The notes beneath the pieces were generated by a model, which did no database searches, was not told the origin of the DNA, and saw only the letters and a program-made list of their open reading frames with translations. The position numbers were made by a program, and so were the translations under genes. DNA of 64,000 bases from Escherichia coli (GTDB lineage: Bacteria > Pseudomonadota > Gammaproteobacteria > Enterobacterales > Enterobacteriaceae): NCBI RefSeq assembly GCF_001677475.2, contig NZ_CP015229.1; one strand, given 5' to 3'. Positions 11,989 to 16,719 of the stretch are shown here, piece after piece. Within the stretch, counting starts at the first letter, position 1, and each line of letters begins with the position of its first letter.

Positions 11989-12003
11989 GACTGTTGTACA
12001 CTA

Positions 12004-12029
12004 CCGGGGCCTTTTGGCCCCGTTTTTTT
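12004..12029 (+). terminator. Rho-independent terminator after manZ
   Basis: GC stem ccggggcc/ggccccg followed by TTTTTTT. Confidence 0.6.
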
Positions 12030-12042
12030 ATCTGGAGGATTA

Positions 12043-12501
12043 ATGACAATCACGGACCTGGTACTGATTCTTTTCATCGCCGCACTCCTGGCCTTCGCGA
12101 TCTACGATCAGTTCATCATGCCCCGCCGTAACGGCCCCACTCTGCTGGCAATTCCTTTGCTCCGGCGTGGTCGCATCGATAGCGTTATATTCGTCGGATT
12201 GATTGTCATTCTTATCTATAACAACGTCACGAATCATGGCGCGCTAATAACAACATGGTTATTAAGTGCACTGGCTCTGATGGGTTTTTATATATTCTGG
12301 ATCCGCGTTCCGAAGATCATCTTTAAACAAAAAGGTTTTTTCTTCGCCAATGTCTGGATTGAATATAGCCGAATCAAAGCGATGAACTTGTCGGAAGATG
12401 GCGTGTTGGTGATGCAATTAGAACAGCGTCGGCTGTTAATCCGCGTTCGAAATATCGACGATCTAGAAAAAATTTATAAGCTTCTCGTTTCAACTCAATA
12501 A
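12043..12501 (+). CDS. yobD: UPF0266 inner-membrane protein YobD
   Basis: 152-aa hydrophobic [27 protein letters not shown]. Confidence 0.8.
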
Positions 12502-12698
12502 GTTATGAATTTAGCCAAAGCTATGTTTAGTGTATTTTTAATAATCAGACATAGCTTAGGCTATATTACCTCTTCCCTTATTTGTTATTTATTTTAACGT
12601 TTCATTGATATATAAATCTAAATGAAAATCGTTATCAATAAAGCAATGAAATAATATATTCCAACAGTTGTTTATGAGACGACAATAACTCAGTCCGC

Positions 12699-12720
12699 CT
12701 GGCGCCGATTATTCTGGCCG
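12699..12720. repeat. Left terminal inverted repeat of the IS21-family element (ctggcgccgattattctggccg)
   Basis: Hand alignment: 18 of 22 positions match the reverse complement of 15035-15056. Confidence 0.5.
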
Positions 12721-12765
12721 GTTTTGTAACCTGAGTGTCATTTACATGATCCAACAGGAAATGGC

Positions 12766-14265
12766 GTGACGCTCAATACTTCTCAGGTCAGTTACTATAT
12801 GACTCAGCGTAAGAAAGGTATAACTCAGCATATCTCGGCCATGAAGGCTGGTATCTCAGTCCGTTCTGGTCGTCGGATCGAAAAAGGAGAGTGGGCAAAA
12901 AACAGTGTTCGGCACTGGCGCACACGCAAAGATCCTCTGGAAGCTGTGTGGGACAGCATGCTTGTTCCTCTGTTGAAAGAGAGGCCGGCTCTGACACCAA
13001 CAACTCTACTGGAGATGCTACAGGATAAATATCCCGGCCAGTACCCCAACAGCCTTCGAAGAACAATGCAACGGCGGGTTCGCGAATGGAAACTACAGTA
13101 TGGTACAGAGCAGGAGGTCATGTTCCGCCAGCAACATCAGCCCGGCCTGCGAGGCCTGTCGGACTTTACTGAACTGAAAGGTGTAGTTGTCACCATCGCC
13201 GGTAAGTTGTTGGCGCATAAGTTGTATCACTTCCGTCTGGAATGGAGCCACTGGAGCTGGATGCGGGTTGTTCTGGGTGGTGAGAGCTTCTCTGCTCTGG
13301 CTGAAGGCCTGCAGGAAGCCCTCGGACAACTGGGCGGAGTGCCGGTAGAACATAAAACGGACAGCCTGAGGGCAGCATGGAAACAACAGGGCGAAGATGG
13401 ACGCCGCGAGCTGACTGAGCGTTATGCTACTCTCTGTCAGCACTACGGAATGCAGGGCGTACACAATAATGCCGGTCGGGGCCACGAAAATGGCTCGGTT
13501 GAAAGTGCCCACGGACATCTGAAAAGGCGTATCTGTCAGGCGCTGATACTGCGGGGCAGTAACGACTTCAGCACCATAGAAGAATATCAGGCCTTCATCA
13601 CTCAGCAGGTTATGCGGCACAACCGTAACAATCAGGATCTGGTCAAGGAAGAACGTCTTCATCTGAAACCGCTGCCGCTTCGTCGCAGTGCTGACTATGA
13701 TGAGCTGACTGTGAGGGTTAGTCGCAGCAGTACCATCAATGTGAAGCACGTCGTCTACAGCGTACCTTCCCGGCTTGTAGGTCAACTGTTACGGGTCAGG
13801 TTATGGGACGATCGTCTGAGCTGTTACGTTGGCAGCAGCGAGGTCATGAGCTGCCCTCGCGTCAGACCAGAAAAAGGGAAGACGCGGGCCCGTCGTATCG
13901 ACTTCCGACATGTGATCGACAGTCTGGCAAAAAAGCCCGGTGCGTTCTGCCATGCAACGCTGAGAAATGACATCCTGCCGGACGATGAATGGCGGAGGCT
14001 GTGGCGTCGCTTATGTAATCATCTGGAGCCCGATATGGCAGGAAGGCTGATGGTACATGCCCTGAAACTGGCTGCAGGATACGACGATATCTCAGTCGTG
14101 GCAAAAGGTATGGAGCAGATGCTGAATACCCCGGGAAACGTGGATCTGCACCGGCTGATGCGCTTCCTGGGTATAAAAGAAAAGGCGTTGCCGGTAGTCA
14201 ATGTGATACAGCATAACCTGAGCAGTTATGAGCAACTACTGCGTGGCAAGGGAGGTTCGCAGTGA
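12766..14265 (+). CDS. istA: IS21-family transposase IstA
   Basis: 499-aa ORF from GTG at 12766 (alternative in-frame ATG at 12799); N-terminal HTH-like region, large catalytic domain; stop overlaps istB start. Confidence 0.8.
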   Translation: MTLNTSQVSYYMTQRKKGITQHISAMKAGISVRSGRRIEKGEWAKNSVRHWRTRKDPLEAVWDSMLVPLLKERPALTPTTLLEMLQDKYPGQYPNSLRRTMQRRVREWKLQYGTEQEVMFRQQHQPGLRGLSDFTELKGVVVTIAGKLLAHKLYHFRLEWSHWSWMRVVLGGESFSALAEGLQEALGQLGGVPVEHKTDSLRAAWKQQGEDGRRELTERYATLCQHYGMQGVHNNAGRGHENGSVESAHGHLKRRICQALILRGSNDFSTIEEYQAFITQQVMRHNRNNQDLVKEERLHLKPLPLRRSADYDELTVRVSRSSTINVKHVVYSVPSRLVGQLLRVRLWDDRLSCYVGSSEVMSCPRVRPEKGKTRARRIDFRHVIDSLAKKPGAFCHATLRNDILPDDEWRRLWRRLCNHLEPDMAGRLMVHALKLAAGYDDISVVAKGMEQMLNTPGNVDLHRLMRFLGIKEKALPVVNVIQHNLSSYEQLLRGKGGSQ

Positions 14266-15017
14266 GCAATATCCATCACCTTGAACATAGCCTGCGTAAA
14301 CTACGCCTGACACGAGTTGGAGCTGAATGGCACGCTCTGGAAAAACGAGCGCTGGCAGAAGGCTGGACACCATCGCGCTATCTTCTGACGCTATGCAATG
14401 AAGAACTCCTGTGGCGCGAGAGTGAAAAACTGCGTCGTTATAAAAAGGAGGCCCGGTTGCCAGTTGCCAAAACGCTGAGCGAATACGACTTCAGTCAGGT
14501 GCCGGAACTGAATGGAGCTCAGTTCCGGCAACTCTGTGAAACGACAGACTGGGTTGATGCAGGAGAAAACGTTCTGCTGTTCGGAGCCAGCGGGTTGGGG
14601 AAAAGCCATCTGGCGGCAGCGATCGTGGATGGCGTAGTAGGTCAGGGCTACCGGGCCCGGTTCTACAGCGCAGGAGAGCTGTTGCAGGAACTACGTAAAG
14701 CCAGAGCTCAGTTGAAACTGAATGAGCTGCTACTGAAACTGGATCGCTACCGGGTGATAGTGGTGGATGATCTTGGCTATGTCAAACGCGATAGTGCCGA
14801 AACGGGTGTGCTGTTCGAGTTAATAGCGCATCGCTATGAACGTGGGAGCCTGGTGATAACCAGTAACCATCCGTTCAGCATGTGGGGCAGCATCTTCGTG
14901 GATGAGACTATGGCGGTGGCTGCGGCAGACAGGCTGCTCCATCACGGATATATGTTCGAACTGAAAGGGGAAAGCTACAGGAAAAAGACAGCGAAGGCAG
15001 TAACAAGCGCGACTTGA
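14262..15017 (+). CDS. istB: IS21-family helper ATPase IstB
   Basis: 251-aa ORF with Walker A (LLFGASGLGKSHLAAAI) and Walker B-like (VIVVDDLGY) motifs; translationally coupled to istA. Confidence 0.85.
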   Translation: MSNIHHLEHSLRKLRLTRVGAEWHALEKRALAEGWTPSRYLLTLCNEELLWRESEKLRRYKKEARLPVAKTLSEYDFSQVPELNGAQFRQLCETTDWVDAGENVLLFGASGLGKSHLAAAIVDGVVGQGYRARFYSAGELLQELRKARAQLKLNELLLKLDRYRVIVVDDLGYVKRDSAETGVLFELIAHRYERGSLVITSNHPFSMWGSIFVDETMAVAAADRLLHHGYMFELKGESYRKKTAKAVTSAT

Positions 15018-15034
15018 TGTCGCCCTGAAGGGTG

Positions 15035-15056
15035 CGGCCAGTATAGTTGGCGCGAG
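15035..15056. repeat. Right terminal inverted repeat of the IS21-family element
   Basis: Reverse complement ctcgcgccaactatactggccg pairs with 12699-12720 (18/22). Confidence 0.5.
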
Positions 15057-15121
15057 TCGGCAAAACTAGTTGACGTCTAATAGTTGTTTTATATTCTCAA
15101 AATATGTTAAGGTTGCGCCCT

Positions 15122-15346
15122 CATTTGGGGAGTAGCCGATTTCCAGATTCCGGAAATGTACGTGTCAACATACTCGTTGCAAAACGTGGCACGTACGGAC
15201 TGAACACTTTCAGTCAGGCGAGACCATATGCACATCAATCGCTATGCCTGCATGAACGCGAAAACCCGTCGCGGCTTGTTGTTCATGTATGCATGTTTGC
15301 TGGGGGCGATGATGTGTTTTATGGATACCCCGGTCAGGACGTTGTC
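15122..15346 (+). promoter_or_regulatory. mntP 5' leader with predicted yybP-ykoY manganese riboswitch (extent approximate)
   Basis: Long untranslated leader before the mntP ATG beginning with ggggagtagcc near the expected transcript start; the E. coli mntP leader is known to hold an Mn riboswitch; structure not folded here. Confidence 0.5.
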
Positions 15347-15913
15347 ATGAATATCACTGCTACTGTTCTTCTTGCGTTTGGTATGTCGATGGATGCATTT
15401 GCTGCATCAATCGGTAAAGGTGCCACCCTCCATAAACCGAAATTTTCTGAAGCATTGCGAACCGGCCTTATTTTTGGTGCCGTCGAAACCCTGACACCGC
15501 TGATCGGCTGGGGAATGGGCATGTTAGCCAGCCGGTTTGTCCTTGAATGGAATCACTGGATTGCGTTTGTGCTGCTGATATTCCTCGGCGGGCGAATGAT
15601 TATTGAGGGTTTTCGTGGCGCAGATGATGAAGATGAAGAGCCGCGCCGTCGGCACGGTTTCTGGCTACTGGTAACCACCGCGATTGCCACCAGCCTGGAT
15701 GCCATGGCTGTGGGTGTTGGTCTTGCTTTCCTTCAGGTCAACATTATCGCGACCGCATTGGCCATTGGTTGTGCAACCTTGATTATGTCGACATTAGGGA
15801 TGATGGTTGGTCGCTTTATCGGCTCAATTATTGGGAAAAAAGCGGAAATTCTCGGCGGGCTAGTGCTGATCGGCATCGGCGTCCAGATCCTCTGGACGCA
15901 CTTCCACGGTTAA
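15347..15913 (+). CDS. mntP: Manganese efflux pump MntP
   Basis: 188-aa membrane protein [25 protein letters not shown]; ORF-track N-terminal extension (15104) rejected. Confidence 0.85.
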
Positions 15914-16719
15914 TAAGAACGCTGCCAGAGGTGAATATTAAAGTCCGTCTGGCAGTCGAACACTTCTTTTGCTACCAGTGTTTGCCAGACTTCTGGCTTC
16001 GCACGCCAGGCAAACGGCGTCATCTGCAATAATGCGACGGCTTCGTCACCGCGAAGACGCATCGGATAACACAACTCATCACTCTGCTGTAATGTAAAAC
16101 CTTCCAGTTGTTCTGCATGTGGTGCATGAAGATGTACTTCATTGTAAATCAGCCCCTTCAGCTCCATCAAATGTCGCGGTCCCGGCGTGGCAGTAATGAC
16201 CCAACCGCCAGGCTTCACTACTCGCGCTAATTCTTCTGCTTTACACGGCGCGTAAATACGTATTATGGCGTCCATACTGGCATCGGAAAACGGCAAACGG
16301 TGGCTGGAAGCAACACAAAAAGTGACCTGCGGATAGCGTTTCGCCGCCGCTTTTATCGCTACCTTCGAGACATCCAGGCCAAACGTGGTGATTTCGGGCA
16401 GCGCATCGGCAAATGCGTGTGTGTAATACCCTTCACCACAGCCAATATCCAGCACCGCCGTGGCCTTTTCATCAAGCCGTTCCCGCAGTTGGGCGACAAT
16501 TGCATCACGCAGCGGCTGATAATGTCCGGCATCTAAGAATGCGCGGCGTGCTTGCATCATTTCCGCGCTGTCGCCCGGATCACGAGACCGTTTATGCTGA
16601 ACGGGCAGCAGATTGACATACCCTTCTTTCGCCATATCAAACTGATGTCGCTGGGGACAGATATAGCTGTTTTTTTCACGCGAAAGAGGCTGATGGCAAA
16701 GTGGACAGGAAAACGACAT
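15910..16719 (-). CDS. rlmA: 23S rRNA m1G745 methyltransferase RlmA
   Basis: 269-aa ORF with N-terminal Cys4 zinc ribbon (CPLCHQ...CPQRH) and SAM methyltransferase motif DIGCGEGYY. Confidence 0.85.

What the first reader, a model, noticed from the sequence alone, without database searches (positions are those of the whole stretch)
12695..15060. Intact IS21-family insertion sequence (istA/istB) in the yobD-mntP intergenic region
Every other gene in the window follows the core E. coli order I recall, but between yobD and mntP sits a 2.36-kb two-gene module: a 499-aa IstA-like transposase and a 251-aa IstB-like Walker-A ATPase, with the family-typical 4-nt start/stop overlap and imperfect terminal inverted repeats. 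Both reading frames are full length, so the element looks transposition-competent. It is the only clearly accessory DNA here. I could not assign it to a named IS from memory.
Basis: partly seen in the sequence, partly recalled or inferred. Interest (0 to 1): 0.6.

Follow-up and report, generated by a model that had tools for sequence, protein, structure and literature searches.

The report
ISEc10 insertion upstream of mntP
This is an intact copy of ISEc10, a known and active E. coli jumping gene; the only unusual point is that it landed about 40 bases upstream of where transcription of the manganese-exporter gene mntP starts, which may change that gene's regulation.

Summary
The window carries one complete IS21-family insertion sequence, and it has a name: ISEc10.

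- **Ends:** It is flanked by a 6-bp target-site duplication, GTTGTT. Removing the IS and one duplicate reproduces the empty yobD-mntP site exactly.
- **Genes:** istA (499 aa) and istB (251 aa) pass the curated NCBIfam cut-offs. They are the same length as the CFT073 ISEc10 copies (98.5% nt identity). The DDE triad (D133, D199, E246) and the Walker A/B motifs are intact.
- **Activity:** ISEc10 is partly or fully present in 898 of 5,426 complete E. coli genomes. Published work selected new ISEc10 insertions in CFT073 in the laboratory. Competence of this copy is plausible but not shown.
- **Rest of the window:** it is colinear with K-12 (98.3% identity).
- **Mildly interesting point:** none of 5,426 complete genomes shares this insertion. 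It sits about 40 nt (26-44) upstream of the inferred mntP transcription start. It moves two MntR-box-like palindromes and a 25%-GC upstream region 2.4 kb away. It also brings an outward-facing TTGACG that forms a promoter-like site with flanking DNA. Any effect on mntP expression is untested.

Verdict: already known element, new location, low interest.

The parts
12667..12672 (.). Left copy of the 6-bp target-site duplication, GTTGTT
   Evidence: It is identical to 15083-15088. Removing the IS and one copy gives an exact match to the empty site of strain 20Ec-P-124.
12673..15082 (+). Complete ISEc10 (IS21 family), 2,410 bp
   Evidence: The ends were defined by comparing copies in eight unrelated contexts, all 2,410 bp. 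Identity is 99.8% to copies in OkiPb01695 and RM9088 and 98.5% to CFT073. There is a single copy in the window.
12673..12720 (+). Left terminal inverted repeat (IRL); tip TATGAGACG
   Evidence: the repeat finder pair I1 has 48-nt arms, 71% complementary; 34/48 positions match.
12766..14265 (+). istA, DDE transposase, 499 aa, GTG start preceded by AGGAA
   Evidence: NF033546 scores 226 bits against a cut-off of 160. D133, D199 and E246 are invariant in alignment A1. Pfam Mu-transpos_C_2 matches residues 311-366. PGAP annotates the same coordinates in other copies.
14262..15017 (+). istB, AAA+ helper ATPase, 251 aa, GTG start overlapping the istA stop (GTGA), preceded by GGGAGG
   Evidence: NF038214 scores 267 bits against a cut-off of 200. 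Pfam IstB_IS21 matches at 7.9e-62. IS5376 IstB (8q3w) matches at 2e-45, with Walker A GASGLGKS and Walker B VVVDD aligned.
15035..15082 (-). Right terminal inverted repeat (IRR); tip (reverse complement) TATTAGACG
15070..15097 (+). Promoter-like site spanning the junction: -35 TTGACG inside the IS right end, 16-nt spacer, -10 TATTCT in flanking DNA, facing mntP
   Evidence: The consensus scan finds it in the window but not in the empty site. It is a consensus match only, and the region holds 4 such sites against 2.8 expected by chance.
15083..15088 (.). Right copy of the target-site duplication, GTTGTT
12509..12566 (.). Two MntR-box-like palindromes (12509-12526 and 12549-12566) in the 25%-GC region upstream of the insertion, now 2,416 bp further from mntP
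   Evidence: The pattern ACATAGCNNNGGCTATGT matches with 1-3 mismatches. Four of the five matches in the 64-kb window lie here, and 1 of 100 shuffles reached 5 matches. GC content is 24.6%. The pattern itself was recalled from memory.
15119..15215 (+). Mn2+ riboswitch aptamer (yybP-ykoY) of the mntP leader, intact, 37 nt downstream of the IS end
   Evidence: Rfam RF00080 scores 41.9 bits (gathering score 45), E = 6e-10, full model length.
15347..15913 (+). mntP (manganese exporter), intact
   Evidence: It is colinear with K-12 b1821. The ATG context is shown.

Best explanation
This is a complete, probably active copy of the known IS21-family insertion sequence ISEc10. It inserted recently, in this lineage only, into the yobD-mntP intergenic region.

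Shown here: the element has two 48-nt imperfect terminal inverted repeats. It encodes a DDE transposase, IstA (catalytic D133/D199/E246), and an AAA+ helper ATPase, IstB, from overlapping genes. It is flanked by a fresh 6-bp target duplication.

Inferred from established knowledge of the IS21 family: IstA binds and cleaves the ends. ATP-bound IstB assembles on target DNA and delivers it to the IstA-end complex. Staggered joining 5-7 bp apart, followed by repair, produces the duplication. When two ends are abutted (in a tandem or circular intermediate) with 1-3 nt between them, the TTGACG in the right end and GACAAT in the left end would form a promoter that drives istA. This resembles what is described for IS21.

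Inferred consequence: the IS sits about 40 nt (range 26-44) upstream of the mntP transcription start. The core promoter, riboswitch and coding sequence stay intact. The upstream MntR-type boxes and the AT-rich region are pushed 2.4 kb away, and an IS-borne -35 element now faces mntP. Transcriptional control of mntP is therefore probably altered, in an unknown direction.
For: - **Family and name:** searches give family-level matches above curated cut-offs. PGAP annotates 98.5-99.8% identical DNA as ISEc10.
- **Ends and duplication:**. All eight copies are 2,410 bp, with duplications of 5-7 bp.
- **Intactness:** lengths equal the CFT073 copies, with 2-4 amino-acid differences. DDE and K at E+7 are invariant across IstA proteins of 21-46% identity. 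Walker A/B align to the solved IS5376 IstB.
- **Recent, lineage-specific insertion:** the duplication is perfect. No place in 5,426 complete genomes covers 80% of the left junction. The site is uninterrupted in 5,418 of 5,422 genomes. Copies differing by only 4-6 nt sit at other sites in other strains.
- **Activity of ISEc10 in general:** new insertions next to lpp were selected in CFT073 (PMC7482066).
- **Junction promoter:**
- **mntP context:** riboswitch at 15119-15215, MntR-like boxes, promoter-like site present only with the IS. PMC11647493 reports that a leader lacking +1 to +19 no longer responded to Mn. This places the start within about 19 nt upstream of the conserved GGGGAGUAG at 15127.
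Against: - No experiment shows that this particular copy transposes.
- IstA gave no phmmer match to any solved structure even at E = 10. Pfam detects only the C-terminal Mu-transposase-like domain, not rve. The catalytic assignment therefore rests on my six-sequence alignment.
- No clear sub-terminal repeats (multiple IstA sites) were found at 12-mers with up to 2 mismatches.
- The element tips are TA, not the TG...CA that I recall as usual in the family.
- The ISfinder reference could not be consulted. One paper gives ISEc10 as 2,530 bp (PMC8764528), against 2,410 bp here.
- The mntP start site, the MntR consensus and the 225-nt leader length are from memory or indirect, because the primary papers were not available.
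- Promoter-like sites are consensus matches at about chance density.
Confidence: 0.93

Rival explanations
1. The copy is a structurally intact but functionally dead or silent relic: it looks complete but no longer moves and has no effect on its neighbours.
For: Only sequence was examined. No promoter-like site lies within the left end upstream of istA. IS21-type elements are thought to express istA poorly unless two ends are abutted (from knowledge of IS21). IstA differs from each compared copy by 2-4 residues. Only one copy is visible in the 64-kb window.
Against: The reading frames are full length. The catalytic and ATPase motifs are intact, and both ends are identical to those of seven other copies. 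The duplication is perfect and the insertion is absent from all 5,426 complete genomes, so it moved recently. Copies differing by 4-6 nt lie at different sites in other strains. ISEc10 transposes in the laboratory (PMC7482066). The one IstB residue unique to this copy (L226) matches the residue in IS5376 IstB.
Confidence: 0.1
2. The insertion is not just a neutral hop but a selected regulatory change. By uncoupling mntP from MntR/Fur/H-NS control and supplying an IS-derived -35 or read-through from istB, it changes manganese export in a way that benefits this lineage.
For: The IS lies 26-44 nt upstream of the inferred start, in the same orientation as mntP. It displaces the MntR-like boxes and a 24.6%-GC region by 2,416 bp. 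TTGACG-16-TATTCT exists only with the IS. No terminator-like site on the + strand lies between the istB stop and the IS end. The upstream region is otherwise uninterrupted in 5,418 of 5,422 genomes. ISEc10 insertions are reported to change expression of lpp and afa genes, and, as cited, ampC.
Against: This is a single occurrence with no recurrence: 0 of 5,426 genomes share it, and no other IS insertion was seen at this site. That argues for a chance event. In published cases ISEc10 mostly lowered neighbouring expression. The promoter prediction is at chance density. The riboswitch and Rho-dependent control of the leader remain and would buffer changes (PMC11647493). No expression or phenotype data exist.
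Confidence: 0.12
3. The module is part of a larger mobile unit (composite transposon, island or prophage), or is resident non-mobile DNA at this site.
For: ISEc10 copies elsewhere often sit inside islands, prophages, plasmids or other IS elements.
Against: The DNA on both sides is core chromosome, colinear with K-12 right up to the duplication. There is no second copy or other accessory DNA in the 64 kb. The reference and nearly all other genomes lack it.
Confidence: 0.01

Closest known systems
ISEc10 (IS21 family), as annotated in E. coli CFT073 and hundreds of other genomes
   Same: Same length (2,410 bp) and same ends. Same gene order and protein lengths (499 and 251 aa). 98.5% nucleotide identity to a CFT073 copy and 99.8% to copies in OkiPb01695 and RM9088. 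Duplications fall in the same 5-7-bp range.
   Different: 37 nucleotide differences from the CFT073 copy (4 in IstA, 2 in IstB at the protein level). The insertion site is not seen in any of 5,426 complete genomes. One paper quotes 2,530 bp for ISEc10, which I could not reconcile. The ISfinder entry itself was not consulted.
IS21 (plasmid R68.45), the family prototype
   Same: istA-istB organisation, a DDE transposase plus an AAA+ helper, terminal inverted repeats, and a short target duplication. There is an outward -35 in the right end that could pair with a -10 in the left end when ends are abutted (the IS21 mechanism is from memory).
   Different: IstA here is about 110 residues longer (499 aa against about 390 aa, from memory). 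The tips are TA rather than TG/CA. The duplication is 5-7 bp rather than 4 bp (from memory). No sequence comparison with IS21 itself was made.
IS5376 (Geobacillus), the structurally solved IS21-family system
   Same: IstB aligns over residues 11-243 at E = 2e-45, with Walker A, Walker B and the DRLLHH region conserved.
   Different: IstA shows no detectable phmmer similarity to any solved chain, so the transposase belongs to a distant branch of the family.
ISRel5, ISBj11-like and unnamed rhizobial/Burkholderia IS21-family elements; IS1326 and ISPst3
   Same: The nearest differently named relatives share a ~480-500-aa IstA aligned end to end at 39-46% identity. IS1326 and ISPst3 align at 21%. 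The same D, D and E columns are conserved.
   Different: These are different IS species (well below 95% identity) in different hosts.

Membership tests
IS21 family | IstA transposase matching the family profile | tested here: met
   NF033546 scores 226.4 bits against a curated cut-off of 160, covering residues 12-304.
IS21 family | Conserved DDE catalytic triad with K/R seven residues after E | tested here: met
   D133, D199 and E246 are invariant, and K253 aligns with K/R, in alignment A1 of six IstA proteins of 21-46% identity. This rests on alignment only, with no structure.
IS21 family | IstB AAA+ helper ATPase with Walker A and B | tested here: met
   NF038214 scores 266.7 bits against a cut-off of 200. 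Pfam PF01695 matches at 7.9e-62. Alignment to IS5376 IstB shows GASGLGKS and VVVDD in register.
IS21 family | istA followed by istB on the same strand, adjacent or overlapping | tested here: met
   istA is at 12766-14265 and istB at 14262-15017, with a GTGA overlap.
IS21 family | Imperfect terminal inverted repeats | tested here: met
   48-nt arms with 34/48 matching. The ends were confirmed by comparing eight copies.
IS21 family | Short target-site duplication (4-8 bp in the family, from memory) | tested here: met
   6 bp (GTTGTT) here, verified against the empty site. Eight copies show 5-7 bp.
IS21 family | Tips ending in TG...CA (a usual, not universal, feature; from memory) | tested here: not met
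   The tips are TATG... on the left and ...AATA on the right (reverse complement TATT...). TG occurs only at positions 3-4 of the left end.
IS21 family | Several sub-terminal repeats serving as multiple IstA binding sites | tested here: inconclusive
   No 12-mer repeats with up to 2 mismatches occur within or between the ends beyond the main inverted repeat. Shorter or more degenerate repeats were not excluded.
IS21 family | Promoter assembled when right and left ends are abutted | tested here: inconclusive
   In silico, a spacer of 1-3 nt gives TTGACG-16..18-GACAAT, 9 of 12 matches. This is a consensus match only.
IS21 family | Demonstrated IstA/IstB-dependent transposition | not testable with these tools
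   Only literature on other ISEc10 copies is available (PMC7482066).
ISEc10 (same IS species) | At least 95% nucleotide identity to the reference element (ISfinder convention, from memory) | tested here: met
   98.5% identity (37 of 2,410 differences) to a CFT073 copy that PGAP names ISEc10.
ISEc10 (same IS species) | Same length and identical termini as other copies | tested here: met
   All eight copies are 2,410 bp and have the same terminal 19-21 nt.

The most novel reading that the evidence does not exclude
The ISEc10 insertion at about -40 of the mntP promoter rewires manganese efflux. It cuts the promoter off from its upstream MntR/Fur sites and its AT-rich (H-NS-type) silencing region. 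It substitutes an IS-borne -35 or read-through from istB. mntP transcription then becomes independent of MntR and is governed only by the riboswitch and Rho. On this reading the change was selected in a poorly sampled E. coli lineage.
Probability: 0.1. Interest if true: 0.4.

Novelty: already known. Interest (0 to 1): 0.15.

Why it matters
As an element it adds nothing new. ISEc10 is named, widespread (898 of 5,426 complete E. coli genomes hold at least part of it) and known to transpose.

Its practical value is as a strain marker, because the junction is unique among complete genomes. It also offers a small, cleanly testable natural experiment. The insertion separates the mntP core promoter and riboswitch from the upstream regulatory DNA. 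Comparing this strain with a precise-excision derivative would show how much of mntP control in vivo comes from upstream transcription-factor sites and how much from the leader RNA.

Tried and rejected
- **Solved structures for IstA:** phmmer found nothing even at E = 10. The DDE triad was instead assigned from an alignment with plasmid-borne relatives.
- **Rfam at gathering threshold over 12000-16000:** nothing found. The mntP riboswitch scores 41.9 bits, just under the 45-bit threshold, and appeared only with the E-value threshold.
- **Primary mntP papers (Waters 2011, Dambach 2015):** these were not held. Searches for the start site and MntR site coordinates in other papers gave only indirect bounds.
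- **Sub-terminal repeats in the IS ends:** none found at 12-mers with up to 2 mismatches.
- **Same insertion in another genome:** rejected. Hits H2 and H4 matched my whole first query only because that query lay inside the true IS ends, and they sit in a TonB-receptor gene and a prophage gene.
- **Recurrent IS insertions upstream of mntP:** rejected. The one outlier examined, B1172, is a deletion, not an insertion.
- **Not run:** the large protein databases, structure prediction and metagenome scans, because the identity of the element was already settled.
Full report
**Observation**

The two reading frames are exactly as described. istA lies at 12766-14265 (GTG start, 499 aa) and istB at 14262-15017 (GTG start, 251 aa), on the + strand, sharing GTGA at 14262-14265. 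Each start is preceded by a Shine-Dalgarno-like sequence (AGGAA and GGGAGG).

The longest inverted repeat in the region pairs 12673-12720 with 15035-15082 (48 nt, 34/48 matching).

**True ends and insertion point**

My first query (12680-15080) matched in full at 98.5-99.8% identity in genomes where the element sits in quite different places. These were a prophage transglycosylase gene in RM9088, a TonB-receptor gene in OkiPb01695 and an island in CFT073.

Aligning the flanks of these copies shows that similarity starts at TATGAGACG (12673) and stops at GACGTCTAATA (15082). Eight copies with exact ends are all 2,410 bp.

In the window the element is flanked by GTTGTT at 12667-12672 and 15083-15088. 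Deleting the IS and one GTTGTT reproduces the uninterrupted yobD-mntP spacer of strain 20Ec-P-124 exactly at the junction, with 3 mismatches in 600 nt. Target duplications of the other copies are 5, 5, 5, 6, 6, 7 and 7 bp. This spread is wider than chance extension of a fixed 5-bp duplication would give, so the stagger seems variable.

**Identity**

- IstA scores 226 bits against the NCBIfam IS21 transposase model (cut-off 160), and IstB 267 bits against the IS21 helper ATPase model (cut-off 200).
- Pfam gives IstB_IS21 at 7.9e-62 for IstB. For IstA it gives only a Mu-transposase C-terminal domain at residues 311-366.
- RefSeq/PGAP annotation of the near-identical copies calls them 'IS21-like element ISEc10 family'.
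- The window copy differs from a CFT073 copy at 37 of 2,410 positions (98.5% identity). It differs from the RM9088 and OkiPb01695 copies at 6 and 4 positions.
- I could not consult ISfinder. The name therefore rests on PGAP's annotation and on papers that use it for the CFT073 and ST131 elements.
- One of those papers gives 2,530 bp for ISEc10, which does not match the 2,410 bp measured here. I leave this unexplained.

**Intactness**

- Both proteins have the same length as the CFT073 proteins and differ at 4 (IstA) and 2 (IstB) residues.
- No solved structure matched IstA by sequence. I therefore collected IstA relatives from plasmids by tblastn: ISRel5, ISPst3, IS1326, and unnamed Paraburkholderia and Rhodococcus elements. 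I aligned these with the window protein.
- D133 (SDFTE), D199 (KTDSL) and E246 (SVESA) are invariant at 21-46% identity, and K/R stands seven residues after the E. This is the pattern expected of an IS21-type DDE transposase.
- IstB aligns over residues 11-243 to the solved IS5376 IstB (E = 2e-45), with Walker A (GASGLGKS), Walker B (VVVDD) and DRLLHH conserved.
- The only IstB residue peculiar to this copy, L226, is the residue present in IS5376.

Sequence therefore gives no reason to doubt competence, but competence itself is untested.

**How it works**

The mechanism is inferred from what is established for IS21 and IS5376, recalled from memory. IstA binds and cleaves the ends. ATP-bound IstB oligomerises on target DNA and hands it to the IstA-end complex. 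Integration with a 5-7-bp stagger yields the duplication.

IS21 is described as reactive mainly when two ends are abutted, which creates a promoter for istA. Here the right end carries TTGACG 7 nt from the tip. Joining it to the left end with 1-3 nt between gives TTGACG-16..18-GACAAT, consistent with the same logic. This is a consensus match only.

I found no distinct sub-terminal repeats. The tips are TA rather than the TG/CA I recall as usual for the family.

**Distribution and age**

- 898 of 5,426 complete E. coli genomes have some match and 525 have a near-complete copy, with up to 14 places per genome. 181 places are on plasmids.
- Related IstA proteins of at least 90% identity also occur on Salmonella and Enterobacter plasmids.
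- The left junction of the window's insertion is found in none of the 5,426 genomes.
- A 400-bp reconstruction of the empty site is continuous in 5,418 of 5,422 genomes.
- The window is colinear with MG1655 1,892,759-1,954,339 at 98.3% identity, with only 1-2-nt indels apart from the IS.
- The backbone's best complete-genome match is 99.5% (strain KV7), and all others are at most 98.8%. The source lineage is therefore poorly represented.
- With a perfect duplication, this is a recent, lineage-specific insertion.
- Laboratory selection of new ISEc10 insertions beside lpp in CFT073 (PMC7482066) shows the IS species is active.

**Consequence for the neighbour**

- The Mn2+ riboswitch aptamer of the mntP leader is at 15119-15215 (RF00080, 41.9 bits, E = 6e-10), and the mntP ATG is at 15347.
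- PMC11647493 reports that a leader lacking +1 to +19 no longer responded to Mn. The conserved GGGGAGUAG is at 15127-15135, so the start must lie at roughly 15108-15126. My memory of a 225-nt leader gives 15122.
- The IS end at 15082 is therefore 26-44 nt upstream of the start, at the upstream edge of the core promoter. By eye, TTGTTT at 15084-15089 and TGtTAAGGT at 15105-15113 could be the -35 and extended -10 elements.
- The core promoter, riboswitch and gene are untouched.
- Two palindromes resembling the E. coli MntR box (12509-12526 and 12549-12566, pattern from memory) would sit about 126-201 nt upstream of that start in the empty site. They are now about 2.5-2.6 kb upstream, together with a 24.6%-GC stretch.
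- Reviews state that MntR and Fur activate mntP by countering H-NS (PMC8632737).
- The IS is oriented like mntP, has no terminator-like site after istB on the + strand, and contributes TTGACG. With flanking TATTCT at 16 nt this forms a promoter-like site that is absent from the empty site.
- Whether mntP expression rises, falls or stays the same cannot be decided from sequence. Published ISEc10 insertions mostly lowered neighbouring expression.

**Verdict**

It is the already named ISEc10, with corrected coordinates 12673-15082 and a 6-bp duplication.

Novelty is nil at the level of the element. The unique position next to the mntP promoter is a modest, testable curiosity. Interest is 0.15.

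Noticed in passing
window 12632-12660 (+): A promoter-like site, TTATCA-17-TATATT, lies in the native AT-rich spacer and ends 13 nt before the IS left end. It is also present in the empty site. In this strain it would read into istA and could give external transcription of the transposase gene.
   Followed up: partly
L017 (NZ_CP120549.1, strain B1172) 2334-2709: One of the four genomes lacking an intact yobD-mntP spacer has a deletion. It runs from inside manZ through yobD and the mntP promoter into the leader, ending near the equivalent of window 15138. mntP itself is left intact.
   Followed up: partly
L013 (TW10690) and L012 (WP2-S18-ESBL-08): ISEc10 copies are nested in or next to other IS21-family elements. 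In TW10690 the copy splits an ISEc12-type istA, with a 7-bp duplication. In WP2-S18-ESBL-08 it abuts another istB, and its own istB is frameshifted.
   Followed up: no
L001, L002, L004, L013-L016 and window 12667-12672 / 15083-15088: The target duplications of eight ISEc10 copies vary in length: 5, 5, 5, 6, 6, 6, 7 and 7 bp. This is more variation than chance extension of a fixed 5-bp duplication would produce.
   Followed up: partly
PMC8764528 versus window 12673-15082: The ST131 afa-promoter paper gives ISEc10 as 2,530 bp. Every complete copy measured here is 2,410 bp. The reason for the difference is unknown.
   Followed up: no
window 15089-40000: The backbone is 99.5% identical to one complete genome (KV7, pig) and at most 98.8% identical to all others. 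The source strain therefore belongs to a lineage that is rare among complete E. coli assemblies.
   Followed up: no
window 15265: There is a single extra C relative to K-12 in the mntP leader, downstream of the riboswitch aptamer. It lies within a terminator-like hairpin, CGCGAAAACCCGTCGCG followed by GCTTGTTGTT. Strain 20Ec-P-124 has A instead of G in the loop.
   Followed up: no
window 15104-15913: The 269-aa ORF listed mechanically here is mntP (15347-15913, 188 aa) extended upstream in frame through its leader. It is not a longer gene. PGAP also annotates a 40-aa hypothetical protein inside the leader of other strains (L003 913-1035).
   Followed up: partly
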